Positions 9,364-47,328 of a stretch of DNA of 64,000 nt are shown here, one piece after another. Positions within the stretch are counted from its first letter, which is position 1. The number at the start of each line of letters is the position of its first letter. A program made the position numbers and the translations under genes. The stretch covers positions 72,973 to 136,972 of the forward strand of contig CAMYIX010000043.1 in NCBI GenBank assembly GCA_947258615.1. The letters are read 5' to 3'. Below the pieces are notes generated by a model. That model was given only the letters and a program-made list of their open reading frames with translations, was not told the DNA's origin and searched no databases. This stretch comes from an uncultured Ectothiorhodospiraceae bacterium (lineage in GTDB: Bacteria > Pseudomonadota > Gammaproteobacteria > UBA9214).

Positions 9364-10254
9364 ATGAACTATCCTACACTCGAAGCCACGATCGGCAACA
9401 CCCCGCTGGTGCGCCTGCAACGCCTGCCGGGCCCGACAAGCAATACCCTGCTGGTGAAACTGGAAGGCAACAACCCGGCCGGTTCGGTCAAGGACCGGCC
9501 GGCATACAGCATGATCCGTTACGCAGAGGCGCGCGCCGAGATCACACCGGGCGATACCCTGATCGAAGCCACCAGCGGCAATACCGGGATCGCACTCGCC
9601 ATGGCGGCCGCCATCAAGGGCTATCGCATGGTGCTGATCATGCCGGAACACATGAGCGTGGAACGGCGCGCGGTGATGAAGGCATTTGGTGCCGAGATCA
9701 TCCTGGTCAGCAAGGAGGCCAGCATGGAAGGGGCCAGAGATCTGGCGAAAGAGATGGAGGCGCGGGGCGAAGGGCATGTGCTCGACCAGTTCTCCAACCC
9801 CGACAATCCGCGGGCGCATTATGAGGGCACCGGCCCCGAGATCTGGCGCGATACCGGCGGTGAGATCACGCATTTCGTCAGTTCCATGGGTACCACCGGC
9901 ACCATCATGGGGACCTCGGCCTACCTCAAGGAAATGAACCCCGACATCGAGATCGTCGGAGTGACCCCCACGGAAGGTTCATCGATACCGGGCATCCGGC
10001 GTTGGCCCGAGGCCTATCTGCCGGCCATCTTCGACGCGGCGCGCGTGGACCGCACCCTCGAGGTCAACCAGCAGGAGGCGGAACACGCGACCCGGGCACT
10101 CGCCGCGCAGGAGGGTATCTTTGCCGGTATCTCCTCCGGGGGTGCGGTCCACGCGGCCCTGTCCCTGTCTCAGCAAGTCGAGCATGCCGTCATCGTTGCC
10201 ATTATCTGTGATCGGGGTGACCGCTATCTGTCCACCGGGGTCTTTCCCGACTAG
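9364..10254 (+). CDS. cysM: cysteine synthase (O-acetylserine sulfhydrylase, CysM-like)
   Basis: PLP-lysine motif NPAGSVKDRPA and TSGNTGIALA glycine-rich loop; about 297 aa. Start taken at MNYPTLEA. Confidence 0.75.
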   Translation: MNYPTLEATIGNTPLVRLQRLPGPTSNTLLVKLEGNNPAGSVKDRPAYSMIRYAEARAEITPGDTLIEATSGNTGIALAMAAAIKGYRMVLIMPEHMSVERRAVMKAFGAEIILVSKEASMEGARDLAKEMEARGEGHVLDQFSNPDNPRAHYEGTGPEIWRDTGGEITHFVSSMGTTGTIMGTSAYLKEMNPDIEIVGVTPTEGSSIPGIRRWPEAYLPAIFDAARVDRTLEVNQQEAEHATRALAAQEGIFAGISSGGAVHAALSLSQQVEHAVIVAIICDRGDRYLSTGVFPD

Positions 10255-10380
10255 CCCGCATTTCTCACCGGGCGGCGGAACATTCACATAAAGTACTGAG
10301 GTGATGAACGGGGTGCAGCTAAGGTACAAGACAGGGCCCCAGCGGGCATTGCCTATCCCCAATGGTAATGCGGGCTTTTA

Positions 10381-29767: not shown

Positions 29768-31060
29768 GTGGCCACAGGCACATCCCACGATAAGCGGAAA
29801 ACCATGCACCGACAGCGCCAGAAATGGGGATGGGCCATGTATGACTGGGCCAACTCGGCCTTTGCGACGATTGTTATCGCCGGCTTTTTCCCCCTGTTTT
29901 TCAAGGAATACTGGAATGCGGGTGTTCCGGTCACCGAGAGTACCTTCAGGCTGGGCCTGGCCAATTCTCTCGCCAGCCTGCTGATCGTTCTGATGGCGCC
30001 AGTCCTGGGTGCAGTGGCAGACTATCTGGGCCGTCGCAAGGGGATGCTGCTCCTGTTTGCCGCTTTTGGAATAGTGATGACCAGCGGTCTCTACCTGATA
30101 GGTGAGGATCAATGGTTGCTGGCAGCGTTTTTGTATGCCATGGCACTGGTCGGGTTCTCAGGCAGCAATATTTTCTATGATTCGCTGTTGCCTTTCGTCA
30201 GCGAGCCTAAAGGGGTCGACAAGACCTCGGCACTGGGCTTCGCGCTGGGTTATCTGGGCGGGGGGCTGGTGCTGGCCTTGAGTATCATTATGTCACTGTA
30301 TCCCGGTTGGTTCGGTTTGGCGGATACCGCTGCGGCAATTCGGTTATCGTTTGTACTGGTCGCCATCTGGTGGCTGGTCTTCACCATTCCGTTGATCCTG
30401 TATGTCCGCGAACCCGGCAATCACCCGCATGAATTGACGGCAGCGGTGTTTGTTGTCGGGTTCAAAAGGATCTGGGGGACCTTGCATGAGATCAGGCAGT
30501 TGCGTGATGCCTGGATATTTCTGCTTGCCTACTGGCTGTATATAGACGGGGTCGACACCATCGTGCGCATGGCAGTCGACTATGGCCTGTCACTCGGATT
30601 CGACAAGCAGGGGCTGATTCTGGCTCTGCTCATTACCCAGTTTACCGGCTTCCCGGCTGCATTGTTGTTCGGACAGTTCGGTAGCCGTTATGGCCCCCGG
30701 GCCGGGATTTATCTGGCGCTGACGGTCTACGTAATGGTCACTGTGTGGGGCGCCATGATGGAAAACGTGTGGGAATTCTATGTGCTGGCTTTCTCCATCG
30801 GGCTGGCGCAGGGGGGGATACAGGCATTGAGCCGGTCCATGTATGCACGCATGATCCCTGCAGGACGTACGGCCGAGTTTTTCGGTTTCTATAACATGAT
30901 GGGAAAATTTGCCGCAATCCTGGGGCCGTTGCTGATGGGGTGGGTGGGTGCCGTGACAGGAAACCCGCGCGCGGGGATTATTTCCTTGCTGGTGCTGTTT
31001 GTAGGCGGCGGACTCATGCTGTTACAGGTGCGGACAGACCGCCCCCCCCGCAGACATTGA
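29768..31060 (+). CDS. MFS transporter (UMF1/Atg22-like family)
   Basis: 12 predicted TM segments; WAMYDWANSAF N-terminal motif of the UMF1 family. The real start may be the internal ATG near 29804. Confidence 0.7.
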   Translation: MATGTSHDKRKTMHRQRQKWGWAMYDWANSAFATIVIAGFFPLFFKEYWNAGVPVTESTFRLGLANSLASLLIVLMAPVLGAVADYLGRRKGMLLLFAAFGIVMTSGLYLIGEDQWLLAAFLYAMALVGFSGSNIFYDSLLPFVSEPKGVDKTSALGFALGYLGGGLVLALSIIMSLYPGWFGLADTAAAIRLSFVLVAIWWLVFTIPLILYVREPGNHPHELTAAVFVVGFKRIWGTLHEIRQLRDAWIFLLAYWLYIDGVDTIVRMAVDYGLSLGFDKQGLILALLITQFTGFPAALLFGQFGSRYGPRAGIYLALTVYVMVTVWGAMMENVWEFYVLAFSIGLAQGGIQALSRSMYARMIPAGRTAEFFGFYNMMGKFAAILGPLLMGWVGAVTGNPRAGIISLLVLFVGGGLMLLQVRTDRPPRRH

Positions 31061-31287
31061 CTGAATGGCGGTTGTACGCAGTTGAAATGTGGCAGGACGA
31101 ACCGTCGCTGCGAGCACAATATATACAGTTATCAATATGGTCCCCCTACAACATATAGAACTCGTTGGTGTTATTCACGCAACTACTTGTTCTAAAAAAT
31201 AATTTAAGGTATAAGCTGTATGTGCTGCAGCAATTGAAAATAACCCTGTATGCATACGGCTGTTTTACATAGCGGGGAGTCGGGGAA

Positions 31288-32193
31288 TTGAACAGTAATG
31301 TTGATCTGCTGCAATATCGGGTGCGTCACCTCCAGGTGACCCGGGATGCTCCGTTGCGGGCGGTGTGGGTGGAGTTCAAATATGATGGCCGTCCATGTTT
31401 TACGAGGGAGTTGCTGGAAGACGTGTGGGCCGTGCAGCGCACCATACGGCAGGCGGTGATATCAGATTATCAGCAGGGACAAACTGACAGGTTGTTGTTC
31501 CAGGTACTTGCCTCGACCGATAGTCGGGCATTCAGTCTGGGCGGTGATTTGACCTATTTTATCGAGCTGATCGAGGCCGGTGATCGTGAGGGTCTGCGCA
31601 ACTATGCCAAAACCTGTATCGAGATCCAGTACATAACCGCGACACATTACGATACCCCGTTCACTACAATCGCACTGGTTGAAGGCGAGGCGCTGGGTGG
31701 TGGATTCGAAGCCGCTTTGTCAGCCAATCTGCTGATTGCCGAGCCGCAGGCGAGATTCGGATTTCCAGAAATTTCATTCGGTATGTTTCCGGGTATGGGT
31801 GCCCTGTCGCTGCTCGCACGTCGGGTGACGTTGGCTACAGCGCGCAAGCTGATTATGGATCAGCGTATTTATACGGCCGAGGAGCTTCACGAATTGGGTG
31901 TTGTGGATATCCTGGCTTCGAAGGGAAAAGGCCGTGAAGCCACCGCTGAATACATGAGGCGGAATATCGGCCTGGTATCCGGCCTTCATGGCTTCCAGGC
32001 AGCAGTTGACCGTGTTTATCCTGTTAAATACGACGAACTCACCGATGTCATTGACTTATGGGTTGAGGCGGCGATGCACCTGAATGACAGAAATAAACGC
32101 CTGATGGAATATTTTGCACGCGCCCAGGTAAGCCGCATTACCACCTCTGAGGATGACTCCGCTTCAGGTTCCTACCGGCTTGAACTGAATTGA
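31288..32193 (+). CDS. rpfF: DSF synthase RpfF (crotonase-fold enoyl-ACP dehydratase/thioesterase)
   Basis: Strong motif-level match to Xanthomonas RpfF: FSLGGDLTYF, ALVEGEALGGGFEAALS (catalytic Glu) and FGFPEISFGMFPGMGA (second catalytic Glu), C-terminal WVEAAMHL. TTG start assumed. Confidence 0.8.
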   Translation: MNSNVDLLQYRVRHLQVTRDAPLRAVWVEFKYDGRPCFTRELLEDVWAVQRTIRQAVISDYQQGQTDRLLFQVLASTDSRAFSLGGDLTYFIELIEAGDREGLRNYAKTCIEIQYITATHYDTPFTTIALVEGEALGGGFEAALSANLLIAEPQARFGFPEISFGMFPGMGALSLLARRVTLATARKLIMDQRIYTAEELHELGVVDILASKGKGREATAEYMRRNIGLVSGLHGFQAAVDRVYPVKYDELTDVIDLWVEAAMHLNDRNKRLMEYFARAQVSRITTSEDDSASGSYRLELN

Positions 32194-32203
32194 CTATTTA
32201 GGT

Positions 32204-34762
32204 TCAGTAATTCTGGGCCTGTGCGCGAAATACATCGGCTTTATCGTGCAGGACCTGGATGGAATCATCCAGGGTACGACGAATAGTGCGCAGTTGAATG
32301 ATGCCATCGGCAGTAAAGTGATCTTTGCTGATGTTCTGATTATCAAGGCACAACTGTGCAAGCCTGGTCAGGCCCAGATACAGGGCGCATCCTTTCAACG
32401 CATGCGCAGCATCCTGGAAGGCTGGCCAGTCATGTTTGGCAACAGAAGTCTCGAGGTGCTGAAAGTCCCTGTTTGCATCGGTCTCGAAATTGCGCATCAT
32501 CTCCAGAATGAAGTCAGGACTTTCGCCTGACAACTGGTTCAATTCCCCGAATTGGTTCTCATCGAGGATTGGGAATTCCTCCGCATTCAATACGTCTGTA
32601 GCGGGTTTGTCCGTGCTCTCCTCGGGCAGGAGTTTGTTCGGCCTGCTGAGTGTTGCAAGAGTGTTTTGCAAGGTGGTCAGTGACACGGGCTTGGTCAGGA
32701 ATAAGTCTATGCCTGCTTTTCTGCACGTTTTCCGGCACTCCTCAGTTGCGTCGGCTGTCAGTATGGCAAAACTCACGCTATGTGTGCCCCCATGTGCGAG
32801 GCAATAGGCCTGGTAGGTCTCAATTCCCCCAAGGCCAGGCATGTTTTTGTCGAGAAATACGACATCATAACCAGACTGCTCCAGTGCCTCGAGTGCTTCT
32901 TCGCCACCTGATACTGTGGTGCAGCCATGCCCCATTTTCTCCAGCATGCGTTTAATGACGATCCGGTTTGTTGCGTTGTCATCTGCGACAAGAACATTCA
33001 AGGTTCTTGACTGACTCTGCCTACTGGACTGGCGACTGGCTATGTGCAGGACATCATCCTCTGTACTATGTCTTGAGTAGCACGCATGCAATGTGTTGAA
33101 GAATATTTGCTTGTCCGCGTTCGAGGCGACTTTGAAAAGCCACTCATGCTCCAGTTTAGTGATCGCGGGCGGGTATTTTTCCGAGTTCAACAGTACAACG
33201 GGAATGCTAGAGGCGGGTTCGTCCAGACTCATATGAGTTAACAGATCACATAGTTCGATATCATAAGGCATGCCATCGATTACAAGGGCATCATAGATTA
33301 AATCCACATCATCACTTCTCAGATCGGCTATAGCCTGCTCGACGGATTTGACAGTCTTAAATGGTATCTTCCAGGCGTGCATAAGCTTGATGGTTTCGCT
33401 GCCGTCGTCTATACCGGGATTCAGATAGAGCACGACGCATTCGCTGGCCCATGATTGATTATTTTCACCGGTAGCTTTGGCGATATCGAATGGTATGTCG
33501 AACCAGAAGGTGGTCCCGACATTGGGAGTACTTTGGATGCCGATTTCCCCTCCCATCAGTTCAATAAGGTTCTTGCAAATTGTAGTGCCGAGACCTGTCC
33601 CTCCAAAGGTTCTCGATACACTGCTGTTGGCCTGCGTGAATGGATCGAAGATGGCATCAATTTGACCAGGATCGATTCCAATACCTGTGTCAATAACCTC
33701 GAATCTCAACAGTGCACGTTGAGCATCAAGCTCTAGAGGGTGAACTTGTACCGATACAAATCCCTGATCTGTGAATTTAATCGCATTGCCTACCAGATTA
33801 ATAATGATCTGCCGTAATTTGTGCGGGTCACCCTGCAACAGGTAGGGTGTCATAGGGTCAAGACTCTCATTTAAATTTATCTGCTTGCTGTCTACCTGCG
33901 TTTTGAATATTCGCAAGGTGGTACTGATCAACGCATAGAGATCGAATTTGATGTTTTCAATCGTCAGTTGTCCGGCCTCGATCTTCGACAGGTCAAGGAT
34001 TTCATTTATCTGCCTGGCCAGTGTGCTGCCGGATGCATGGATGATATCCACACATTCCTTGTCATCAGGTTCAAGTGGCCTTAGTCTTAGCAACTCTGTC
34101 ATGCCAAGTATCCCATTAAGCGGCGTGCGGATCTCGTGCGACATTCTTGACAGAAAGTCGCTCTTGGCGCGGTTGGCATCATTCGCGCGCTGGCGTGCTT
34201 CATTGAGGCGACGGATTAGTAATGCAGAGTAGGCAGGAATAACAAGAAGTGTAATGGCCAGTCCTATTGCGAGTCCCCTATGTGTATCCCAGTATGGTGT
34301 AGAATAAACAACAGCACCAAAACCTATAAGTGATGTCGCGCCAGAGAGATATAGATATTTTTCACCATACCTGAAACCGTTTCCTAGAATTACCCAAAGA
34401 AATACTCCGTACCACGGCGCACCCATGTGACCTGTTAAATACATTCCGTAACTTAATGCGCCAGTATCACCGCATATGCCTATGATGCGTCTAACTATAG
34501 AAGGCTGAGTCCACACCAGAGTGGAAATAAAAAGTAGAATTGCAAAGGCAAGGAATGAAAGAATGAACCATGTTCCTTTTCCCCAAATTTGGATATCATT
34601 TTGTGTGGCTGGCCCGTTGATTATTAGGTAGCACAAGAACGTCAAAGGGATAAAGATACGTAACACACCCTGTTCTTGGTCAGGGGTCCCGTGCCAACCA
34701 ATTATTTCTAATAGCTTCTTTGCTATTGGGCCGATCAGGCCATTATTTATGTCGGTAGGCAT
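32204..34762 (-). CDS. rpfC: RpfC-like hybrid sensor histidine kinase (5-TM sensory input, HisKA, HATPase, pseudo-receiver, receiver, C-terminal HPt)
   Basis: N-terminal polytopic membrane region, H-box SHEIRTPLNGILGMTELL, ATPase G-boxes, REC (VLVADDNATNRIV...DVVFLDKNMPGLGG), and C-terminal Hpt (HALKGCALYLG). Convergent with rpfF. Confidence 0.75.
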   Translation of the reverse strand: MPTDINNGLIGPIAKKLLEIIGWHGTPDQEQGVLRIFIPLTFLCYLIINGPATQNDIQIWGKGTWFILSFLAFAILLFISTLVWTQPSIVRRIIGICGDTGALSYGMYLTGHMGAPWYGVFLWVILGNGFRYGEKYLYLSGATSLIGFGAVVYSTPYWDTHRGLAIGLAITLLVIPAYSALLIRRLNEARQRANDANRAKSDFLSRMSHEIRTPLNGILGMTELLRLRPLEPDDKECVDIIHASGSTLARQINEILDLSKIEAGQLTIENIKFDLYALISTTLRIFKTQVDSKQINLNESLDPMTPYLLQGDPHKLRQIIINLVGNAIKFTDQGFVSVQVHPLELDAQRALLRFEVIDTGIGIDPGQIDAIFDPFTQANSSVSRTFGGTGLGTTICKNLIELMGGEIGIQSTPNVGTTFWFDIPFDIAKATGENNQSWASECVVLYLNPGIDDGSETIKLMHAWKIPFKTVKSVEQAIADLRSDDVDLIYDALVIDGMPYDIELCDLLTHMSLDEPASSIPVVLLNSEKYPPAITKLEHEWLFKVASNADKQIFFNTLHACYSRHSTEDDVLHIASRQSSRQSQSRTLNVLVADDNATNRIVIKRMLEKMGHGCTTVSGGEEALEALEQSGYDVVFLDKNMPGLGGIETYQAYCLAHGGTHSVSFAILTADATEECRKTCRKAGIDLFLTKPVSLTTLQNTLATLSRPNKLLPEESTDKPATDVLNAEEFPILDENQFGELNQLSGESPDFILEMMRNFETDANRDFQHLETSVAKHDWPAFQDAAHALKGCALYLGLTRLAQLCLDNQNISKDHFTADGIIQLRTIRRTLDDSIQVLHDKADVFRAQAQNY

Positions 34763-34859
34763 TTATACTGTATATTCTTGATGATGCGAGCGTGCTTCGG
34801 TAGTTAACTTTATATATCGACAATATTTATCTAATTCTTTAATTTCTATTGGGTTATAG

Positions 34860-35102
34860 ATGTCCCTAATGGTTAAATCTGCTGTTTTTGAAGTAATTGC
34901 TGCCCAAACAAATCGCGAGACAGAAACGATCTCTTTGGAGTCAGAACTTAAAGATCTTGGCATTGATTCTCTAGGCGCGATTACGGTCATATATGAACTT
35001 GAGGAACGGTTCGATATTGAAATACCGAACGAAGTTATTGAATCTATTAGTAATGTTCGGGATATCGTTAATCATCTCGAACTGACGCTCGGAAATCGCT
35101 AG
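34860..35102 (+). CDS. acyl carrier protein (dedicated, island-encoded)
   Basis: 80 aa with the phosphopantetheine attachment motif LGIDSLGAITV (Ser in DSL); acidic helix II. Confidence 0.7.
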   Translation: MSLMVKSAVFEVIAAQTNRETETISLESELKDLGIDSLGAITVIYELEERFDIEIPNEVIESISNVRDIVNHLELTLGNR

Positions 35103-35107
35103 GAACA

Positions 35108-36322
35108 ATGCCAAATAAGGTGGTTATTACCGGACTTGGTTGTGTCAGCGGTCTCGGTATGAATGTCCCGGATTTTTGGGATGGTATGTGTGAAGGGCGA
35201 TCTGGTATCTCACCACTAGCGGGAATTGATGAGGGTGTGAAAATAAGGCTGGGAGCCACGGTCAATGGATACCAGCCGGAAAGCCACTTCAGCACGAGCG
35301 ATCTGCCATTGCTAGACCGATTTTCGCAATTCGCGATTTTGGCGGCACGTGAAGCGATACACGATGCCGGTCTGGAGGCCTCAGGGGATAATCTGGCTGA
35401 GGCTGCTGCGATTATCGGGACAGGCTGTGGAGGCAAGCAAACAGACGAGGAAACCTATTCGCGCTTATATAAAGAAGCACACTCGCGTGCCCACCCGATG
35501 ACTATCCCAAAAGGTATGCCAAGTGCCGCAGCCAGCATGGTCAGTATGCACCTGGGCATCAAGGGGCCGGTTTTCTCAGTTGCCAGTGCCTGTGCGTCAG
35601 CTGCCCATGCAGTATGTCAGGGTCGGATGATGGTCCTTTCCGGGCTGGTAGATATCGCGGTTGTCGGTGGTGCAGATACACCCTTCACTTATGGTCTATT
35701 GAAGGCCTGGGAGGCGTTGAGAGTGATATCAAATGATACATGTCGGCCGTTTTCCAGGGACCGTACTGGCATGGTACTCGGTGAAGGCGCCGGTATGGTT
35801 GTGATTGAGTCTCAGAAGCATGCTGTCCGACGTGGTGCGCGTATCTATGCAGAACTATCAGGGTGTGGGTTATCTTCTGATGCTGGACATATTACCCGCC
35901 CGGATGTTGGCGGTATATCCTGTGCAATAAACAGAGCAATCAAAGATGCCGGACTTTTGCCTGAATCAGTAGGCTATATAAACGCGCATGGGACAGGGAC
36001 GATGGCGAATGATATCGCAGAAACGCAGGCATTGAGGAGGGTGTTTGGGGCCCACGCTGACAAATTGGCAGTTACCTCGACCAAGTCAATGCATGGTCAT
36101 GCGCTCGGGGCATCCAGTGCGCTTGAGTTGGTTGCCACAGTGCGGGCTATTCATGGCAGAACAGTTCCACCAACAGCAAATTTCACCGAGCCTGGAGAAG
36201 GCTGCGATCTGGATTATGTGCCAAACATGGCGAGAGAGCAGGAAATTTCTGCTGCACTTTCAAATTCTTTTGCTTTTGGAGGGCTTAATGCCGTGCTCGC
36301 CTTGCAGGCATGGCATGGCTGA
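35108..36322 (+). CDS. beta-ketoacyl-ACP synthase (KAS I/II, FabF/FabB-like)
   Basis: Active-site Cys in ASACASAAHAV, His-His motifs (NAHGTGT, MHGHALGASS), GGLNAVL C-terminus; 404 aa. Confidence 0.8.
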   Translation: MPNKVVITGLGCVSGLGMNVPDFWDGMCEGRSGISPLAGIDEGVKIRLGATVNGYQPESHFSTSDLPLLDRFSQFAILAAREAIHDAGLEASGDNLAEAAAIIGTGCGGKQTDEETYSRLYKEAHSRAHPMTIPKGMPSAAASMVSMHLGIKGPVFSVASACASAAHAVCQGRMMVLSGLVDIAVVGGADTPFTYGLLKAWEALRVISNDTCRPFSRDRTGMVLGEGAGMVVIESQKHAVRRGARIYAELSGCGLSSDAGHITRPDVGGISCAINRAIKDAGLLPESVGYINAHGTGTMANDIAETQALRRVFGAHADKLAVTSTKSMHGHALGASSALELVATVRAIHGRTVPPTANFTEPGEGCDLDYVPNMAREQEISAALSNSFAFGGLNAVLALQAWHG

Positions 36323-36326
36323 ATGG

Positions 36327-37397
36327 TTAATCTCGGGCCCTGAATAGATAGTGGCTGTTGCCATAGAAATTACCATCCATCGGCGCGAATACTGTCTTGC
36401 ACAGTGAAAAGTAGTTATTCCAGTGCGCAATGGCGCTAGAGTCGAAGATATGTTCATACAGATATGGCACTCTCTCCCAGAAGCGTTGGTGCCATTCATC
36501 AAGCGTGCGCCAGTAATTAAGACCATTGACAAACCAATGGCCAATCAGATCAAGGTGCTCGGTATGACGGGCGAGTTCATCATGAGGCCATGCCCGCCCA
36601 CCGGGAAAATACAAGCCGATACGCGTCTTTTCAGGGTCCAGGAATTGTGGAATAACTCTGCGAGATGTGATGAAGTGATGAAATGTTTTTCCATGTGGTG
36701 TTAGCATGTCTGAGATTTTCAAAAGGGCGGCGCTCATGTTCCGTACCTGTTCAAATACTGCTACAGATATGACAAGGTTAAAACTATTTTGTTCTGATGA
36801 ATTCAAAGGCAACTGATCAAACTTTCCTTCAATCAGCGTAAAGCGCCCGCTACCAAGTGGATCATCTGGATCATTCATTCGCTTTCTTAGGTAGTTAACC
36901 TGGACTCTGCTGGGCGTTATACCGACAATCTCCAGCTTCGGGAATCTCTTGAGAAGGTAGCTCTCGAGCGAACCAAATCCGCAGCCTATATTGAAGATTC
37001 GTTCATGTCCTTCTATCTGTGCGCGCCTGGCAATAAGGTCGAACTTTGCATGTTGCGCTTCTTCGAGTGTGGCGTCAGATTTTCGTATGCTGACGGGGCT
37101 TTCGCCGTAGTAGGCCATTGAATAGGCGTGGTAGCGAGTATCTAAAAAGCTCTTGAAAAAATTCAGATCTTCATCGTAGTGGTGCTCCATCAGCGAATCA
37201 GTGTCTTCCATGATGGGCCCTTCACTGGTAGAGATGCCGAGTTCGGGTAATGAGACCGGATTGTCTGTGTAGCGCTGGTACTCTCTTGTGAAGAACCGCG
37301 TTAGTCGGTCTTCGTAGAGGCGAAGTTCGTTGCTTGAGGGCCCGTGTATGCCTTTCAGTGCGAGTTTTTCCCTGATCAACTCGATGTTTATATCCAT
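36327..37397 (-). CDS. cyclopropane-fatty-acyl-phospholipid synthase-like SAM-dependent methyltransferase
   Basis: SAM-binding motif IFNIGCGFGSLESYL and overall CFA-synthase/mycolic-acid methyltransferase family architecture with an N-terminal extension; 356 aa. Confidence 0.65.
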   Translation of the reverse strand: MDINIELIREKLALKGIHGPSSNELRLYEDRLTRFFTREYQRYTDNPVSLPELGISTSEGPIMEDTDSLMEHHYDEDLNFFKSFLDTRYHAYSMAYYGESPVSIRKSDATLEEAQHAKFDLIARRAQIEGHERIFNIGCGFGSLESYLLKRFPKLEIVGITPSRVQVNYLRKRMNDPDDPLGSGRFTLIEGKFDQLPLNSSEQNSFNLVISVAVFEQVRNMSAALLKISDMLTPHGKTFHHFITSRRVIPQFLDPEKTRIGLYFPGGRAWPHDELARHTEHLDLIGHWFVNGLNYWRTLDEWHQRFWERVPYLYEHIFDSSAIAHWNNYFSLCKTVFAPMDGNFYGNSHYLFRARD

Positions 37398-37514
37398 CTC
37401 GATGGTAGGCAGGTGGCGCTGTTTTGGTCTTTGAATCCCTGCGACTCAGGATTCCTGAGAATGGAACGCGAACTTAATTTAGGTTTGTAATCCTAACACA
37501 CTGATGTGTTGTCA

Positions 37515-38573
37515 TCATTGGCTATGGCTTAGTTTTATGTCCGAGAGCATGTCCTGTATCTTCATCACGGTATCGAGTTGGGACTTGAATGCATCGTAAC
37601 ACTCCGGATCAAAATGCAGGCCGCTTTGTTTTTCCATATAATCAATGGCTTCCTGCATCGACCAGGCATGTTTGTAGGGGCGTACCGAGACGAGGGCGTC
37701 ATAGACATCTGCGACTGCAACGATCCTTGCCGGCAAGGGAATTGCTTCGCCCTTCAGCCCTTGTGGATATCCTGAGCCGTTAAATTTTTCATGGTGACTG
37801 AGCGCGATCACTGCGCCCATTTGCAAAAACTTGGAAGGGCTGTCCTTGAGTATTTCGTGACCGATCAGCGTGTGTCGCTTCATTATCTCGAATTCTTCTG
37901 TGTTTAGTTTTCCCGGCTTCAGCAATATGTCGTCCCTGATCCCGATTTTCCCTATGTCGTGCATCGGTGCCGCCATCTCAATGACATCAGCTTCCTCGGA
38001 TGTGAACCCCATGTGTTCAGCTATAACCCGGGCAAACTTGGCCATCCGTACCACGTGGTTACCGGTTTCCTCGTCCCTGTATTCACCAGCCTTCGCGAGG
38101 CGGAGCAAGGTCTCCCTTTCGCGTAGACGAATCTCGCTGGTGGCTTCTGCAACCCGCCGTTCCAACCAGTGCGACCTGTCCTGGATGATCTTGTATTGCT
38201 GGTGCTGGGTCAGCAGGTTCCGGCAGCGGGCCCGGCACTCGTTATGGTCAACCGGCTTCATCAGGAAGTCGGTGGCACCTGCTTCAAGCGCCTGGTAACG
38301 GACATTTCTGTCTTCTACAGAGGTCACCATGATGATCGGGACGTGTTCGCAGGCCGGGTTTGCCCTGAACTTGAGGATGAACTCTATGCCATTCATTTCA
38401 GGCATTTTGTAATCGGTGAGTATCAGGTCCACCTGATTGCGTATTGACCAGTCCAGCGCCTCCATTGGGTTTGCAAATGACTGTACATCCGGCTCGCCTT
38501 CAATGGCGTTCACCAGGTGGACCAGTATTTGCCGACTGGTTAATTGGTCATCTACGACTACGATCGTGGCCAT
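37515..38573 (-). CDS. rpfG: RpfG-like response regulator: receiver + HD-GYP c-di-GMP phosphodiesterase
   Basis: REC domain (IVVVDDQ...DLILTDYKMPEMNG), HD motif (PMHDIGKIGI), and HHEKFNGSGYP HD-GYP signature. Start at MATIVVVDD. Confidence 0.8.
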   Translation of the reverse strand: MATIVVVDDQLTSRQILVHLVNAIEGEPDVQSFANPMEALDWSIRNQVDLILTDYKMPEMNGIEFILKFRANPACEHVPIIMVTSVEDRNVRYQALEAGATDFLMKPVDHNECRARCRNLLTQHQQYKIIQDRSHWLERRVAEATSEIRLRERETLLRLAKAGEYRDEETGNHVVRMAKFARVIAEHMGFTSEEADVIEMAAPMHDIGKIGIRDDILLKPGKLNTEEFEIMKRHTLIGHEILKDSPSKFLQMGAVIALSHHEKFNGSGYPQGLKGEAIPLPARIVAVADVYDALVSVRPYKHAWSMQEAIDYMEKQSGLHFDPECYDAFKSQLDTVMKIQDMLSDIKLSHSQ

Positions 38574-38896
38574 ATGGCTTCTCTGCGATATCTTGGATAT
38601 TTGAACTAAAACCACCGGAATCCACGCCTTCCGGACGCTATGGTCTCCGGCTTCTATGTAACTTGATTCACATAACTAACTGATATACATAGCCAAACAT
38701 GACTCTACATATGCACGAGTTTATATCGGCAGATGCTTGAACAAATTGAGACTTATTGACCCAGGCCGCCGGGCGGCGCCGGTTACGCCCGGCTTTTTCC
38801 GCAGGGGTAGGCCAGTGTCAGTGCTGGTGCCGATTACAGGCGTGATTGCCTGCCGGTGCGATGTGGTTAAAATACCGCACACTTTGCTAACAGGGA

Positions 38897-39127
38897 TTGA
38901 GAATGGGTACGGAATACAATGACCGGCCACGGTCACCTTCGTTAATCAAGGTGCTGGGCAGTGTACTGGCCAGTATGTTCGGTGTACAAAGTTCGCGCAG
39001 GCGGGAAGAGGATTTCGCGAACGGCAAGCCGTCCCATTACATTATCGTGGGCTTGTTGGTGACAGTAATTTTCATCCTGTCCATCTGGGGTGTGGTCCGG
39101 CTGGTGCTGAGTCTGGCAGGTGTCTAG
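38897..39127 (+). CDS. DUF2970-like small membrane protein
   Basis: 76 aa with a C-terminal TM helix (IIVGLLVTVIFILSIWGVVRLV). Weak call. Confidence 0.4.
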   Translation: MRMGTEYNDRPRSPSLIKVLGSVLASMFGVQSSRRREEDFANGKPSHYIIVGLLVTVIFILSIWGVVRLVLSLAGV

Positions 39128-39166: not shown

Positions 39167-41916
39167 CTAAAGCGACTGAATCCTTTGTTGCTGCTCTTCC
39201 AGGTTACTGATGGCATTTTTCAGATCGTTCGCGCGCAGCCTTTCCTTCTCCACTACCGCGACAGGAGCCTTGTCGATAAAACTGGCATTGTTGAGCTTCT
39301 TTTCGCAGCGTTCCAGTTCGCCGGTTTTCTTGTCCAGTTCCTTGCCCAGGCGAATGATTTCGGTGTCCTTGTCGATCAGTCCTGATAGCGGGATCAGCAG
39401 CTTCATGTTGCCCACCAGTGCGGTTGCCGATTCCGGGGCAAGCTGTTTTGGGTCCAGCCATTCCACCGACTCGACCCGCCCGACGCTGACCAGGTAGTGC
39501 CGGTTCTGGGCCAGCCGTGCCTGGTCAATCGCCGAGCCGTTTTGCAGCAGTACCGGCAAGGGTTTGCGCGGGTCGATATTCATCCCGCTGCGTATTTTGC
39601 GTACGCCGATGATGAAGTCCTTGACCCATTCGGTTTCGTCAATGGCAGCCTGGTCGATGCGCGTGATATCTGCATTCGGGTACGGCTGACGCATGATGGT
39701 GTCGCCTTCAATGCCGGCCAATGGTGCCATGCGTTGCCATATCTCTTCGGTAATGAAAGGTATGATCGGATGGGCAAGTCGCAGCAGGCCCTCCATTACA
39801 CCGACCAGCGTCTTTCGGGTACCGCGCTTTGCCGCTGCCGAACTGTTCGCATCCATCAGCACGGACTTCGATAGTTCCAGGTACCAGTCGCAGTATTCAT
39901 CCCAGGTGAATGAATAAATGGCCTGCGCCACAAGGTCGAAGCGGTAGCTGTCGGTGTATTCCACGACTTCCTGCGTGGTCTTCTGGAGCAGGGAGGTGAT
40001 CCAGCGGTCCGCCGCATTCAGTTCGATCTCTCCACCGCCCTGGCAGCAATCCTCGTTCTCGGTATTCAGCAAAACATAACGTGCGGCATTCCACAGCTTG
40101 TTGCAGAAGTTGCGGTAGCCTTCGATGCGGCCCAGGTCGAAATTGATATCGCGCCCGGTGGAAGCCAGCGCTGCGTACGTGAAACGCAGGGCGTCGGTCC
40201 CGAATGCCGGGACGCCATCCGGGAAGTCCTTGCGGGTGAGTTTTTCGATTCGGTCGGCCATTTTCGGCTGCATCAGACCACCACGGCGTTTTGCGATCAG
40301 CGACTCCAGGTCGATGCCGTCGATCAGGTCGATCGGGTCCAGTACATTGCCCTTGGATTTTGACATCTTCTGGCCGTGGGCGTCGCGCACCAGTCCATGG
40401 ATATAGACCTCGCGGAAGGGCACGTCGTTCATGAAGCGCAGGCCCATCATGATCATGCGCGCAACCCAGAAAAAGATTATGTCGAAGCCGGTGACCAGTA
40501 CGCTGGTTGGATAGAATGTCCTGACTGCCTCGGTGTCTTCCGGCCAGCCCAGGGTGCTGAACGGCCACAGGGCGGATGAGAACCAGGTGTCGAGGACGTC
40601 TTCATCCTGGCTGAGCGTGATGTCGGGTGCCAGCCCGTGCTTTTCACGCGCCTCGCGCTCACTGCGTCCGACATAGATATTGCCGTCGGTGTCATACCAG
40701 GCGGGTATGCGGTGTCCCCACCAGATCTGCCGTGATATACACCAGTCCTGGATGTTGCGCATCCACTCGAAATAGGTGTTCTTCCAGTTGTCCGGGATGA
40801 AGCGGATGCTGCCGTCCTCGACGGCCCGGATTGCGGGTTCCGCCAGTGGGCCGATCTTCACGAACCAGGTTCCACCACGGCGCCGGAGCGGTCGCCGCGC
40901 GGGACCATCAGCTTGTGCTCCTCGATCTTCTCCAGCAGGCCCTGTTCATCGAGGTCGGTCACGATCTGCTTGCGTGCCGCGTAGCGGTCCAGGTTCCGGT
41001 ATTTGGCGGGTGCGTTCTCGTTGATGCAGGCATCGATCGTGAACACGTTGATCATCGGCAACGCGTGACGCCTGCCAATCTCGTAGTCGTTGAAATCATG
41101 CGCCGGGGTGATCTTCACGCAGCCGGTACCGAATTCCGGGTCGACATAATCATCCGCGATAATGGGGATCTCCCGATCGGCAAGCGGTAGCCTGACCGTC
41201 TTGCCCACCAGGTCTCTGTAACGTTCGTCCTCGGGGTGCACGGCCACGGCCGTATCGCCGAGCATGGTCTCCGGGCGTGTAGTTGCAACGACCAGGTGAC
41301 CGGAGCCGTCGGCCAACGGATAGCGCATGTGCCAGAAGTGGCCGGCTTCTTCCCCGGAGATCACCTCGAGGTCGGACACCGCGGTATGCAGTACCGGGTC
41401 CCAGTTCACCAGACGCTTGCCGCGGTAGATCAGGCCGTCTTCGTAGAGTCGCACGAAGGTTTCCCTGACGGCCTTGGACAGGCCCTTGTCCATGGTGAAG
41501 CGCTCGCGGCTCCAGTCCACCGAACTGCCCATGCGCCGCAGCTGTCGGGTGATGGTGCCACCGGACTCGTGCTTCCATTCCCAGATGCGTTCAATGAAGG
41601 CTTCGCGCCCGAGGTCATGGCGGGTCTTGTCGTCGCTGTTGAGCTGCCGTTCCACTACCATCTGGGTCGCAATGCCCGCATGGTCGGTGCCTGGCTGCCA
41701 CAGGGTGTTGTCACCGCGCATGCGGTGGTAGCGGGTGAGGGCGTCCATCAGGGTGTGCTGAAAGGCGTGCCCCATATGCAGACTGCCGGTCACGTTGGGC
41801 GGTGGGATCATGATGCAGTAGGGGGCACCCTCGCCGGAAGGCGCAAAATGGCCCTCCCGCTCCCATGTCTCGTACCAGCGTTGCTCTATCGCATGCGGGT
41901 TGTAGGTTTTTTCCAT
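39167..41916 (-). pseudogene. valS: valine--tRNA ligase (ValS) with a ~16-nt out-of-frame internal deletion near 40858-40862
   Basis: N-terminal fragment (to 40858) has [13 protein letters not shown] (HIGH) and ends ...[13 protein letters not shown]. The C-terminal fragment (39167-40861) continues [17 protein letters not shown]...[17 protein letters not shown]...KMSKS in another frame. The conserved MLTDQ segment between them is missing. Confidence 0.8.
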
Positions 41917-42005
41917 GAGCGGTTCTTGTTGCGTGAAAAACATGCCCGACCCACGGCCGGGGCAGGAATTATAACTTAGCTGGCGGGATAATTCGGGGGT
42001 GGTGG

Positions 42006-47253: not shown

Positions 47254-47328
47254 TGGCGCTCCCTAGGGGACTCGAACCCCTGTTACCGGCGTGAGAGGCC
47301 AGTGTCCTAACCACTAGACGAAGGGAGC
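47254..47328 (-). tRNA. tRNA-Glu, anticodon read as CUC
   Basis: Minus strand GCTCCCTTCGTCTAGTGGTTAGGACACTGGCCTCTCACGCCGGTAACAGGGGTTCGAGTCCCCTAGGGAGCGCCA folds as a cloverleaf nearly identical to canonical bacterial tRNA-Glu (D-arm UCGUCUAG, T-arm GGGGUUCGAGUCCCCU, encoded CCA). The anticodon loop CU-CUC-AC gives CUC rather than the usual UUC. Confidence 0.8.

What the first reader, a model, noticed from the sequence alone, without database searches (positions are those of the whole stretch)
31061..38720. Horizontally acquired DSF-family (rpfF/rpfC/rpfG) quorum-sensing island in a non-xanthomonad backbone
An AT-rich ~7.7 kb insert between an MFS transporter gene and valS encodes an RpfF-like synthase with both catalytic Glu motifs conserved, an RpfC-like hybrid kinase with 5-TM input and Hpt, and an RpfG-like REC/HD-GYP regulator. 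Nothing else in the window suggests a xanthomonad-like background. The flanks are ordinary gammaproteobacterial housekeeping synteny, so the module looks laterally acquired. Together these genes predict production and perception of a cis-2-unsaturated fatty acid signal that regulates c-di-GMP turnover.
Basis: partly seen in the sequence, partly recalled or inferred. Interest (0 to 1): 0.8.

Follow-up and report, generated by a model that had tools for sequence, protein, structure and literature searches.

The report
DSF-type signalling module with lipid-tailoring genes
A low-GC block in an uncultured sediment/marine gammaproteobacterium encodes a fatty-acid (DSF-family) cell-to-cell signalling system that, unlike the textbook version, carries its own acyl carrier protein, chain-extending enzyme and cyclopropane-synthase-like methyltransferase, so it probably makes and senses a chemically modified, not yet described signal.

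Summary
Window 31.0-38.9 kb is a GC trough (0.43-0.53 against ~0.61) between an MFS gene and DUF2970/valS. It holds an RpfF-clade crotonase (E141 and E161 intact), an RpfC-type hybrid kinase and a REC-HD-GYP regulator.

These three genes are not bystanders. The methyltransferase subfamily is always found with KAS, ACP and an RpfF-family crotonase wherever contigs extend far enough (33 loci). This holds in four architectures and in many unrelated chromosomal contexts. The partner is either a kinase plus HD-GYP or a GGDEF-EAL protein.

"Horizontally acquired" is only partly supported. Distant relatives have an empty MFS-DUF2970-valS site. But the module sits at this site, with the same GC dip, in every relative down to 62% crotonase identity. 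It has no mobility genes or convincing flanking repeats. Any insertion was therefore ancient and has since been inherited vertically.

Best reading: a new variant of the DSF family that makes a SAM-modified cis-2-enoic acid on a dedicated ACP and controls c-di-GMP. The chemistry is inferred, not shown.

The parts
29768..31060 (+). Left flank: MFS/ATG22-like transporter. Host gene, not part of the module.
   Evidence: Pfam ATG22 and MFS_1. It lies next to DUF2970-valS in the empty-site relatives L055 and L061.
31061..31287 (.). AT-rich intergenic region upstream of the crotonase gene. This is the left junction of the block.
   Evidence: GC 0.46-0.49. Promoter-like matches do not exceed the shuffle expectation.
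31288..32193 (+). RpfF-clade crotonase (putative DSF-family synthase), 301 aa.
   Evidence: NF006452 scores 298 bits against a cutoff of 177. The best PDB matches are RpfF and BDSF-synthase structures at 1e-42 to 1e-45. E141, E161, G85, L136, G137 and M170 are conserved.
32204..34762 (-). RpfC-type hybrid sensor kinase, 852 aa. It has a multi-TM input domain (residues ~30-185), HisKA, HATPase, a degenerate receiver-like spacer, REC and HPt.
   Evidence: Pfam domains. Motifs H at SHEIRTP (208), D at DKNMPG (638) and H at HALKG (787); hydropathy profile. The RpfC REC domain 3m6m_D scores 1.2e-23. The input domain belongs to a family of 2,039 clusters.
34763..34859 (.). Divergent intergenic region between the kinase gene and the acp-KAS pair. 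It has the lowest GC of the block.
   Evidence: GC 0.36-0.41.
34860..35102 (+). Dedicated acyl carrier protein, 80 aa, with the DSL phosphopantetheine-attachment motif.
   Evidence: PF00550, E = 1.8e-14. Sequence LGIDSLGAI. Orthologues occupy the same position in L001, L002, L008, L015 and L092.
35108..36322 (+). FabF-like beta-ketoacyl-ACP synthase II paralogue, 404 aa. It starts 5 bp after acp.
   Evidence: Pfam ketoacyl-synt N and C domains. PRK07314 subfamily is met; the fabF equivalog scores 425 bits against a cutoff of 494. The Cys-His-His triad is visible in the alignment to 1j3n.
36327..37397 (-). CMAS-family (cyclopropane-synthase-like) SAM methyltransferase, 356 aa. It lies downstream of, and co-directional with, the HD-GYP gene.
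   Evidence: Pfam CMAS 100.8 bits. Equivalents of E239, H266, I268 and Y317 are invariant and C139 is replaced by Met. The subfamily is discrete and always linked to an RpfF-family gene. The fold is CMAS-like.
37515..38615 (-). RpfG-type response regulator: REC + HD-GYP, a c-di-GMP phosphodiesterase type.
   Evidence: Pfam Response_reg plus HD_5/HD. PmGH (4mcw) scores 4e-60, and the HD and HHEKFNGSGYP motifs are intact.
38897..39127 (+). Right flank: DUF2970 small membrane protein. Host gene.
   Evidence: It is orthologous to the DUF2970 genes of relatives and lies between MFS and valS in the empty sites.
39167..41943 (-). Right flank: valS, interrupted by a 16-bp deletion near position 40868.
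   Evidence: NCBIfam valS matches on two adjacent ORFs. The deletion shows in the alignment to L001.

Best explanation
The block is a six-gene DSF-family signalling module, ancestral to a lineage of uncultured sediment/marine Gammaproteobacteria.

Proposed mechanism, with the status of each step:
1. The dedicated ACP and the FabF-like KAS II build or extend an acyl chain on a private carrier (inferred).
2. The CMAS-family methyltransferase keeps a cyclopropane-synthase-type bicarbonate pocket. It adds a SAM-derived carbon to a cis double bond of that chain, giving a cyclopropane, methylene or methyl branch (inferred from active-site residues and strict gene linkage).
3. The RpfF-clade crotonase dehydrates the 3-hydroxyacyl-ACP to a cis-2-enoyl thioester and hydrolyses it, releasing a free modified cis-2-enoic acid (by homology to characterised RpfF and the BDSF synthase).
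4. The signal is sensed by the multi-TM input domain of the RpfC-type hybrid kinase. Phosphate then passes His-Asp-His (HPt) to the REC domain of the HD-GYP protein, which hydrolyses c-di-GMP (by homology).

Origin: the module entered the MFS|DUF2970-valS junction once, in an ancestor, and has been inherited vertically since. Its low GC is shared by the whole lineage.
For: Core signalling genes:
- The crotonase sits in the DSF-synthase clade with the catalytic Glu pair and pocket residues.
- The kinase has a complete HisKA-HATPase-REC-HPt relay with all phospho-acceptor motifs. Its REC domain matches the RpfC REC structure.
- The HD-GYP domain is intact.

The cassette belongs to the system:
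- The methyltransferase subfamily is discrete: about 400 proteins, with members of at least 41% identity clearly separated from generic CMAS at 32% or less.
- In 33 loci it lies within a few kb of an RpfF-family gene, normally with KAS and ACP.
- By my reading of the table, the loci lacking the crotonase are cut at the relevant side; L142 is ambiguous.
- The linkage holds in four gene orders and in contexts lacking prfC, MFS and valS (L092, L099, L113, L120, L122-L127, L130, L138, L147, L167).
- Crotonases from six-gene modules are monophyletic, including L092 from a different context.
- In variant C the same crotonase-ACP-KAS-methyltransferase set is paired with a GGDEF-EAL protein instead of the kinase and HD-GYP. 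This again links it to c-di-GMP.
- In the window the methyltransferase is co-directional with, and 117 bp downstream of, the HD-GYP gene.

Chemistry:
- Equivalents of E239, H266, I268 and Y317 of E. coli CFA synthase are invariant in 11 diverse members. This is the bicarbonate site of cyclopropane synthases (PMC3132707).
- The KAS has its Cys-His-His triad and the ACP has its DSL motif.

Origin:
- Identical synteny and GC dip in L001, L002, L006-L008, L094, L109, L115 and L154.
- Empty sites in L055 and L061.
Against: - No chemistry or expression data exist; all hosts are uncultured MAGs or metagenome contigs.
- The methyltransferase is far from any characterised enzyme. It is 26% identical to E. 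coli CFA synthase and scores 98 bits against a cutoff of 400 on the CFA synthase equivalog.
- Its best full-length structural matches are plant N-methyltransferases, and the C139 position is Met. C-methylation or cyclopropanation is therefore an inference.
- A conjugated cis-2 double bond is a poor nucleophile for this chemistry, so the actual olefin substrate is unknown.
- The Xcc RpfC ligand-contact residues R15, D17 and S18 are not conserved, and E19 is Asp (against the sequence).
- The RpfF equivalog NF053515 is not met: 183 bits against a cutoff of 550.
- Variant D loci show the methyltransferase and crotonase without KAS or ACP nearby (L137), so KAS and ACP are not obligatory.
- The module decays in some relatives: L004 keeps only a remnant, L006/L007 keep half a methyltransferase gene, and L015 has an IS insertion.
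Confidence: 0.55

Rival explanations
1. Plain, recently acquired rpfF/rpfC/rpfG island. A canonical xanthomonad-type DSF system making an ordinary cis-2-unsaturated fatty acid was laterally inserted into this genome. ACP, KAS and the methyltransferase are unrelated passengers.
For: GC and GC3 trough. Empty MFS-DUF2970-valS sites in L055 and L061. RpfF-, RpfC- and RpfG-type proteins are present. L013 carries a three-gene version without the cassette at the same site.
Against: - The same six genes, site and GC dip occur in all relatives down to 62-65% crotonase identity.
- There are no mobility genes, tRNA or convincing repeats.
- The cassette is linked to RpfF-family genes in 33 loci across four architectures and many contexts.
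- The crotonase is only ~35% identical to Xcc RpfF.
Confidence: 0.08
2. Specialised lipid biosynthesis cassette under two-component control, not a diffusible signal. The crotonase would act as a FabM-like isomerase or dehydratase that introduces a cis double bond on the dedicated ACP. KAS would extend the chain and the methyltransferase would cyclopropanate it, for membrane or cell-surface lipids. The kinase and HD-GYP would merely regulate this.
For: Crotonase + KAS + ACP is the logic of FabM/FabF unsaturated fatty acid synthesis (general knowledge). A PlsC-type acyltransferase and a class-3 lipase flank variant C. Cyclopropane-synthase-type active-site residues are present.
Against: - The crotonase is specifically in the clade of the two characterised signal synthases, with the Glu pair used for dehydration and thioester cleavage.
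- It resembles other crotonases no more than generically, at 1e-18.
- The cassette is almost always paired with a sensor and a c-di-GMP enzyme (kinase + HD-GYP, or GGDEF-EAL), the hallmark of DSF systems.
- The six-gene module itself has no acyltransferase.
Confidence: 0.15
3. DSF-family system in which the methyltransferase makes a methyl ester, or other heteroatom-methylated derivative, of the fatty acid. This would be analogous to 3-hydroxy fatty acid methyl ester signals of Ralstonia made by PhcB, rather than a C-methyl or cyclopropane product.
For: The best full-length structural neighbours are heteroatom (N-) methyltransferases of the CMAS fold, at TM ~0.7, and they are the best PDB sequence hits at 7e-16. 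There is a weak NCBIfam hit to the fatty-acid O-methyltransferase Mtf2, E = 7e-6. The motif is EQ rather than EH.
Against: The four bicarbonate-site residues typical of olefin-methylating enzymes are invariant. The plant N-methyltransferases lack the H266 and Y317 equivalents in the alignment. Sequence identity is higher to CFA synthases (22-26%) than to N-methyltransferases (16-19%).
Confidence: 0.12
4. The low GC does not reflect foreign origin. The module is an old resident whose fast-evolving, weakly selected genes drifted to lower GC3 in a GC-rich genome.
For: Module proteins diverge faster than flanks: window against L008 gives crotonase 65%, kinase 56% and methyltransferase 65%, while prfC is 86% and valS 81%. 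In other lineages the module's GC tracks the host within 0-0.05. No mobility signatures are present.
Against: Empty sites exist in outgroup genomes. The same module occurs in unrelated chromosomal contexts, so it has moved at some time. L013 has a different crotonase and kinase (40-41% identity) beside an orthologous HD-GYP (73%) at the same site, which indicates replacement events.
Confidence: 0.3

Closest known systems
Xanthomonas campestris rpf system: RpfF (DSF synthase), RpfC (hybrid kinase), RpfG (REC-HD-GYP)
   Same: - A crotonase with E141 and E161 and a conserved pocket.
- A hybrid kinase with a membrane input domain, HisKA-HATPase-REC-HPt, and an acidic residue plus Gln before TM1.
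- A REC-HD-GYP output protein.
- All three encoded together.

   Different: - Only ~35% crotonase identity, and the RpfF equivalog cutoff is not met.
- No rpfB (FadD).
- Extra ACP, KAS II and CMAS-type methyltransferase.
- The kinase is 852 aa with a receiver-like spacer.
- Sensor residues R15, D17 and S18 are not conserved.
- In Xanthomonas the methyl branch of DSF comes from branched-chain primers (general knowledge), not from a SAM enzyme.
Burkholderia cenocepacia / Cronobacter BDSF system: RpfF_Bc (Bcam0581; PDB 5fus, 6dgn) with the receptor RpfR (PAS-GGDEF-EAL)
   Same: The NCBIfam profile is essentially the same as for our crotonase: NF006452 is met and the RpfF model scores 183 bits. 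Variant C loci pair the cassette with a GGDEF-EAL protein next to the synthase, as in Burkholderia.
   Different: - ~35% identity.
- The window uses a kinase and HD-GYP, not RpfR.
- The N-terminal ~235 aa of the variant C GGDEF-EAL protein match nothing in Pfam or PDB, so RpfR membership is not shown.
- No ACP, KAS or methyltransferase has been reported for BDSF synthesis.
Cyclopropane fatty acid synthase and mycolic acid cyclopropane synthases/methyltransferases (Pfam CMAS, PF02353)
   Same: Rossmann SAM-methyltransferase core. Bicarbonate-site residues E239, H266, I268 and Y317 are conserved. Like the mycobacterial enzymes it lacks the CFA synthase N-domain and is encoded with an ACP and a KAS. 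Mycolic acid enzymes are thought to act on ACP-bound chains (general knowledge).
   Different: 22-26% identity. The curated CFA synthase cutoffs are not met. C139 is replaced by Met. The distinct ~65-aa N-terminal helical extension resembles that of plant N-methyltransferases. It is strictly linked to RpfF-family genes rather than to membrane lipid genes.
Pseudomonas aeruginosa PA1396 (RpfC-related DSF sensor) and DspI (cis-2-decenoic acid synthase, PDB 5wyb)
   Same: PA1396 shows that RpfC-type multi-TM input domains sense DSF-family acids in non-xanthomonads, through TM helices IV and V (PMC6536496).
   Different: DspI is a remote match, at 1.6e-11 against 1e-45 for RpfF. A direct alignment to PA1396 could not be made with the tools available.

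Membership tests
DSF-family synthase clade (RpfF / BDSF synthase; NCBIfam NF006452) | Scores above the curated cutoff of the model that captures the characterised synthases. | tested here: met
   Window protein 298 bits against a cutoff of 177. The same model gives 385 bits for the Bcam0581 sequence and 396 bits for the Xcc RpfF sequence.
DSF-family synthase clade (RpfF / BDSF synthase; NCBIfam NF006452) | Catalytic Glu141 and Glu161, and substrate-pocket residues. | tested here: met
   E141, E161, G85, L136, G137 and M170 are conserved in the window protein and in all aligned clade members; position 138 is Gly in the window protein but Ala in L013.
DSF-family synthase clade (RpfF / BDSF synthase; NCBIfam NF006452) | Closer to characterised synthases than to beta-oxidation enoyl-CoA hydratases. 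| tested here: met
   PDB: 7zq7, 3m6m, 5fus and 6dgn at 2e-45 to 6e-42; the next crotonases are at 4e-18.
Xanthomonad RpfF proper (NCBIfam NF053515 equivalog) | Score of at least 550 bits. | tested here: not met
   183 bits, the same as the Burkholderia BDSF synthase sequence. ~35% identity to Xcc RpfF.
DSF-family synthase clade (RpfF / BDSF synthase; NCBIfam NF006452) | Dehydratase plus thioesterase activity on 3-hydroxyacyl-ACP, releasing a cis-2-enoic acid. | not testable with these tools
   Requires an enzyme assay or metabolite analysis.
RpfC-type DSF sensor kinase | Hybrid architecture HisKA-HATPase-REC-HPt with phospho-acceptor residues. | tested here: met
   All four Pfam domains. Motifs SHEIRTP, DKNMPG and HALKG are present.
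RpfC-type DSF sensor kinase | N-terminal membrane input domain with five TM helices. | tested here: inconclusive
   Kyte-Doolittle analysis gives 3 strong segments and 2-3 weaker Gly-rich segments between residues 33 and 183. Five or six helices are both possible. No dedicated topology predictor was available.
RpfC-type DSF sensor kinase | Sensor residues R15, D17, S18, E19 and Q22 adjoining TM1 (PMC5391125). | tested here: not met
   The window has H-G-T-P-D-Q-E-Q before TM1. Only Q22 is identical, E19 becomes Asp, and R15, D17 and S18 differ (against the sequence). Positions were matched by motif only, because no Xcc RpfC sequence was available.
RpfC-type DSF sensor kinase | REC domain related to the RpfC REC domain that binds RpfF (PDB 3m6m chain D). 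| tested here: met
   3m6m_D at 1.2e-23 over residues 582-708. It is the only REC-only chain in the list, which was cut at E <= 1e-15.
RpfC-type DSF sensor kinase | Input domain homologous to that of bona fide RpfC or PA1396. | tested here: inconclusive
   The domain family is large: 2,039 clusters at 50% identity. One representative is labelled RpfC by IMG's automatic annotation. The true Xcc or PA1396 sequences were not retrievable.
RpfG-type regulator (REC + HD-GYP c-di-GMP phosphodiesterase) | REC domain followed by an HD-GYP domain with HD and HHExxxGxGYP motifs. | tested here: met
   Pfam Response_reg + HD_5. MHDIGK and HHEKFNGSGYP are present. PmGH 4mcw scores 4e-60.
Cyclopropane fatty acid synthase / mycolic acid methyltransferases (Pfam CMAS) | Pfam CMAS gathering score. 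| tested here: met
   100.8 bits against a cutoff of 27.
Cyclopropane fatty acid synthase / mycolic acid methyltransferases (Pfam CMAS) | Bicarbonate-site residues C139, E239, H266, I268 and Y317 (PMC3132707). | tested here: inconclusive
   Four of five are invariant (E216, H241, I243, Y295). The C139 position is always Met.
Cyclopropane fatty acid synthase / mycolic acid methyltransferases (Pfam CMAS) | Curated equivalog score for CFA synthase (NF008686), and the N-terminal lipid-binding domain. | tested here: not met
   97.8 bits against a cutoff of 400. The E. coli N-terminal ~100 aa have no counterpart.
FabF (KAS II) | Cys-His-His triad and the fabF equivalog score. | tested here: inconclusive
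   The triad is present. TIGR03150 scores 425 bits against a cutoff of 494 (not met), while subfamily PRK07314 scores 417 bits against 387 (met). It is therefore a FabF-like paralogue.
Recently acquired genomic island | Compositional deviation from the host. | tested here: met
   GC 0.43-0.53 against ~0.61; GC3 0.35-0.63 against 0.69-0.80.
Recently acquired genomic island | Mobility genes, tRNA target or flanking direct repeats. | tested here: not met
   No integrase or transposase ORF. The only tRNA is at 47257-47328. There is only one imperfect 21-nt pair, 17/21 matching.
Recently acquired genomic island | Absent from close relatives that share the flanks. | tested here: not met
   Present at the same site in L001, L002, L006-L008, L015, L094, L109, L115 and L154. 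Empty sites occur only in distant L055 and L061, where MFS is 50-52% identical.

The most novel reading that the evidence does not exclude
The crotonase-ACP-KAS-methyltransferase cassette defines a new chemical subclass of DSF-family signals: cis-2-enoic acids carrying a SAM-derived cyclopropane, methylene or methyl group, assembled on a dedicated carrier protein. It is widespread in uncultured sediment and marine Gammaproteobacteria. It is wired alternately to RpfC/RpfG-type or GGDEF-EAL-type c-di-GMP outputs. Swapping of the synthase and sensor at a fixed locus, as in L013 against the window, would create signal 'dialects'.
Probability: 0.4. Interest if true: 0.75.

Novelty: new variant of a known kind. 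Interest (0 to 1): 0.55.

Why it matters
All characterised DSF-family signals are plain or primer-branched cis-2-unsaturated fatty acids drawn from housekeeping fatty acid synthesis. A conserved synthase cassette with its own ACP, ketosynthase and cyclopropane-synthase-like methyltransferase predicts a signal structure that has not been described. It also predicts a way for bacteria without branched-chain fatty acids to diversify DSF signals.

The host lineages are abundant, uncultured sediment and marine Gammaproteobacteria, and surveys already report rpfF as one of the commonest quorum-sensing genes in such habitats (PMC12781772). The prediction can be tested directly by heterologous expression of four small genes. 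It would also give new ligands for work on RpfC/PA1396-type receptors.

Tried and rejected
- **Organism name.** I looked for one through exact cluster look-ups and the species-genome scan. These gave only 'Gammaproteobacteria bacterium' labels.
- **Insertion scars.** The repeat search found only chance-level pairs. Promoter- and terminator-like matches were at or below shuffle expectation. Neither was used as evidence.
- **Constant module GC.** I first thought the module had a constant GC of ~0.48 in every host. This was rejected: in other lineages it tracks the host GC.
- **Homology to true RpfC.** I tried to show it through the exhaustive input-domain search and name look-ups. Only an automatic IMG 'RpfC' label turned up, so the test is inconclusive.
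- **RpfR in variant C.** I tested whether the variant C GGDEF-EAL protein is RpfR. Only its GGDEF-EAL part matches PDB entries and nothing matches the N-terminus, so I do not claim RpfR.
- **DspI-type synthase.** Rejected: 1.6e-11 against 1e-45 for RpfF.
- **Literature.** Searches for RpfF combined with ACP, ketoacyl synthase, methyltransferase or cyclopropane synthase found no description of this cassette.
- **Failed call.** One search failed on a bad frame and gave nothing.

Full report
**1. The observation**

The window averages 59% GC. Between about 31.0 and 38.9 kb the GC falls to 0.43-0.53, with a minimum of 0.36 at 34.7-35.0 kb. GC3 of the genes inside is 0.35-0.63. The flanking prfC, MFS, valS and pepA genes have GC3 of 0.69-0.80. 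The compositional anomaly is therefore real and its coordinates are about right.

- A 301-aa crotonase at 31288-32193(+).
- An 852-aa HisKA-HATPase-REC-HPt hybrid kinase with a hydrophobic N-terminus at 32204-34762(-).
- A 366-aa REC + HD-GYP protein at 37515-38615(-).

- An 80-aa acyl carrier protein at 34860-35102(+). It hits PF00550 at E = 1.8e-14 and has the DSL motif.
- A FabF-like KAS II at 35108-36322(+), with an intact Cys-His-His triad.
- A 356-aa CMAS-family SAM methyltransferase at 36327-37397(-).

The immediate right neighbour is a small DUF2970 gene at 38897-39127, followed by valS.

**2.

*Crotonase.* Its best solved-structure matches are the DSF-family synthases, at E = 2e-45 to 6e-42: Xcc RpfF (3m6m), a close homologue (7zq7), B. 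cenocepacia Bcam0581 (5fus) and Cronobacter RpfF (6dgn). Ordinary enoyl-CoA hydratases start at 4e-18, and P. aeruginosa DspI scores 1.6e-11. The alignment places the Xcc catalytic Glu141 and Glu161 on E141 and E161 of the window protein. Pocket residues G85, L136, G137, G138 and M170 are also kept.

The protein fails the xanthomonad-specific NCBIfam RpfF equivalog (183 bits against a cutoff of 550). It passes NF006452 (298 bits against 177). I scanned the sequences of the two characterised enzymes, taken from the alignments. The Burkholderia BDSF synthase shows essentially the same pattern (385 and 183 bits), and Xcc RpfF also passes NF006452 at 396 bits. NF006452 thus corresponds to the DSF-synthase clade, and the window protein is a member.

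It is about 35% identical to both reference enzymes, which are 38% identical to each other. It is therefore a third deep branch.

*Kinase.* It has all phospho-acceptor motifs. Its REC domain matches the RpfC REC domain crystallised with RpfF (3m6m_D, 1.2e-23). Its N-terminal 200 residues belong to a large family of membrane input domains: 2,039 clusters at 50% identity, mostly at the N-terminus of hybrid kinases of about 700-860 aa. IMG's automatic annotation labels one sampled representative RpfC.

The literature defines the Xcc sensor as R15-A16-D17-S18-E19-H20-A21-Q22 adjoining TM1, followed by five TM helices (PMC5391125). E19 is described as conserved in all RpfC-related input domains (PMC6536496). 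The window kinase has H-G-T-P-D-Q-E-Q before its first helix. So Q22 is kept, E19 becomes Asp, and R15, D17 and S18 differ. The relatives L049 (EHEQ) and L091 (EQEQ) keep E19 and Q22. I matched these positions by motif only, because no authentic RpfC sequence was retrievable. Hydropathy cannot decide between five and six helices. My conclusion is: RpfC-type architecture, probably RpfC-type input, different ligand-contact residues.

*HD-GYP protein.* It is a clean REC-HD-GYP. Its best structural relative is the active c-di-GMP phosphodiesterase PmGH (4mcw, 4e-60), and the HD and HHEKFNGSGYP motifs are intact.

**3. The extra genes belong to the system**

The methyltransferase defines a small, discrete subfamily of about 400 proteins. 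All are about 356 aa and at least 53% identical among the best 120 hits.

I scanned metagenome contigs with an alignment of 11 diverse members. The results split sharply. Members with at least 41% identity have module partners. Generic CMAS proteins with 32% identity or less have none.

Among subfamily members, 33 loci contain an RpfF-family crotonase within a few kb, normally with KAS and ACP. By my reading of the table, the loci lacking the crotonase are contigs cut on the relevant side. L142 is ambiguous.

Four gene orders occur:
- **A**, the window type: HD-GYP > methyltransferase > < KAS < ACP, kinase > < crotonase. It occurs at the MFS/valS site (L094, L109, L115, L154) and in unrelated contexts (L092, L099, L113, L120, L167).
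- **B**: HD-GYP - kinase - crotonase - methyltransferase - KAS - ACP (L100, L105, L111).
- **C**: crotonase < then ACP > KAS > methyltransferase >, with no kinase or HD-GYP (L138, L140, L147, L148, L159).
- **D**: methyltransferase directly followed by the crotonase (L133, L136, L137, L143, L151).

L092 carries the full six-gene set between beta-oxidation genes and an HrpB helicase gene. In a neighbour-joining tree the crotonases of six-gene modules are monophyletic and include L092. The crotonases of cassette-less loci (L013, L057) and the reference enzymes fall outside this clade.

In variant C the gene after the methyltransferase encodes a 685-689-aa GGDEF-EAL protein. This was seen in L138 and L147. 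It recalls the synthase/RpfR pairing of Burkholderia. However, the N-terminal ~235 residues match nothing in Pfam or PDB, so I do not claim RpfR membership.

The conserved core is therefore crotonase + methyltransferase, usually with KAS and ACP. It is repeatedly wired to a c-di-GMP enzyme. In the window, the methyltransferase gene lies 117 bp downstream of the HD-GYP gene on the same strand. ACP and KAS are 5 bp apart.

**4. What chemistry?**

Against E. coli CFA synthase (26% identity), the methyltransferase keeps E239, H266, I268 and Y317 as E216, H241, I243 and Y295. All four are invariant in 11 diverse members. C139 is always Met. These five residues hold the active-site bicarbonate and are reported as strictly conserved in non-plant cyclopropane synthases. 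The C139S mutant keeps 31% catalytic efficiency (PMC3132707).

The protein lacks the CFA synthase N-terminal domain. An AlphaFold2 model (pLDDT 77.7) is closest over its full length to plant benzylisoquinoline N-methyltransferases (TM ~0.7, 16-19% identity). These share the N-terminal helices. CFA synthases follow (TM ~0.6, 22-23% identity). In the alignment the plant enzymes lack the H266 and Y317 equivalents, while our protein has them.

I therefore favour olefin-directed C-methyl transfer (cyclopropane, methylene or methyl branch) over N- or O-methylation. This is inference. The order of steps and the double bond attacked are unknown. One route would be elongation of a cis-enoyl intermediate by the dedicated KAS. 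That would move the double bond out of conjugation before methyl transfer, after which the crotonase would form the cis-2 bond and release the acid.

**5. Is it horizontally acquired?**

For acquisition:
- The GC and GC3 trough.
- Empty sites in the Thioalkalispiraceae-labelled MAGs L055 and L061, where MFS, DUF2970 and valS are contiguous (gaps of 27-51 bp and 20-62 bp). This places the module exactly between MFS and DUF2970.
- The occurrence of the same module in unrelated contexts.

Against a recent event:
- Every relative sharing the ilv-leuA-UDG-GNAT-prfC-CxxCxxCC-MFS ... DUF2970-valS-holC-pepA synteny carries the module or its remnant at this site. This holds from 89% down to 62% crotonase identity.
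- Where measured, these relatives show a dip of 0.04-0.11.
- There are no integrase or transposase genes, no adjacent tRNA and no convincing repeats.
- Gene-by-gene identities co-vary with the flanks, though the module genes evolve faster.
- In other lineages the module's GC tracks the host, so the dip is specific to this lineage.

The dip reflects either an old acquisition from a lower-GC donor or drift of weakly constrained genes. I judge an ancient insertion followed by vertical descent to be the most likely history.

The site is also a hotspot:
- L013 has a different crotonase (40%) and kinase (41%) beside an orthologous HD-GYP (73%), with no cassette.
- L049 has DUF3999, a kinase and HD-GYP.
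- L057 has a solo crotonase plus glycosyltransferases.
- L062 has unrelated small genes.

**6. Comparison with what is known, and novelty**

DSF-family systems outside Xanthomonadales are well known, for example in Burkholderia, Cronobacter and Pseudomonas sensors. Metagenome surveys report rpfF as abundant in sediments (PMC12781772).

Full-text searches found no description of an RpfF-family synthase linked to its own ACP, ketosynthase and CMAS-type methyltransferase. No cultured organism appeared among the homologues. I classify the feature as a new variant of a known kind. The signalling logic is the same as rpfF/C/G. It is a member of the broad DSF-synthase clade, but not of xanthomonad RpfF proper, and it has an added tailoring cassette that predicts new signal chemistry.

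**7. Confidence**
- The block is a DSF-family signalling module acting on c-di-GMP: about 0.85.
- ACP, KAS and the methyltransferase act in signal biosynthesis: about 0.6.
- The modification is a C-methyl or cyclopropane group rather than an ester: about 0.4-0.45.
- Ancient insertion rather than recent HGT: about 0.6-0.7.

Noticed in passing
window 39167-41943 (-), lesion near 40868: valS is split into two ORFs by a 16-bp deletion relative to the L001 orthologue. The missing bases are CTACCTGACCGACCAG, which encode the conserved (Y)LTDQ motif. Because valS is an essential single-copy gene, this is probably an assembly or sequencing error rather than a true pseudogene.
   Followed up: partly
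L013 11561-16027, compared with window 31288-38615: At the same chromosomal site, L013 has an orthologous HD-GYP regulator (73% identity) but a very different crotonase (40%) and kinase (41%), and no ACP, KAS or methyltransferase. This looks like replacement of the synthase-sensor pair beside a conserved output protein, that is, possible signal 'dialect' switching. The record is labelled 'Halobacteria archaeon', which appears to be a mislabel given its gammaproteobacterial synteny.
   Followed up: partly
L138 7143-13140; L147 5296-11258: This variant pairs crotonase-ACP-KAS-methyltransferase with a GGDEF-EAL protein of 685-689 aa. That protein's N-terminal ~235 aa match nothing in Pfam or PDB. 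A PlsC-type acyltransferase and a class-3 lipase flank the set. The N-terminal region could be a new ligand-binding domain for this signal class.
   Followed up: partly
L004 (closed 2.6-Mb MAG CP070821) 10001-11641; L006/L007; L015 15381-16292; L091: The module is decaying in several lineages. L004 keeps only the crotonase and a REC-HPt remnant. L006/L007, an abundant marine population (the index lists it in 96 blocks), keep only half of the methyltransferase gene. L015 has an IS transposase between KAS and the methyltransferase. L091 has methyltransferase-KAS-kinase next to transposase fragments.
   Followed up: no
window 30987-31007 and 38822-38842: An imperfect 21-nt direct repeat (17/21 identical) brackets the block, with one copy inside the 3' end of the MFS gene. 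It is probably a chance match but was not tested further.
   Followed up: no
window 33485-33995 (kinase residues ~427-589): The kinase has a ~160-aa spacer between HATPase and REC whose sequence (VVLYLNP...DALVIDGMPYD...IPVVLL) looks like a degenerate, non-phosphorylatable receiver domain. Xcc RpfC, at 726 aa by my recollection, has no room for it.
   Followed up: no
L137 973-1986: In variant D, an FHA-PilZ protein (a c-di-GMP-binding domain) lies two genes upstream of the methyltransferase-crotonase pair.
   Followed up: no
window 47257-47328 (-): This is the only Rfam hit in the window: a tRNA about 8 kb from the block. It is not adjacent, so it is not an integration target.
   Followed up: no
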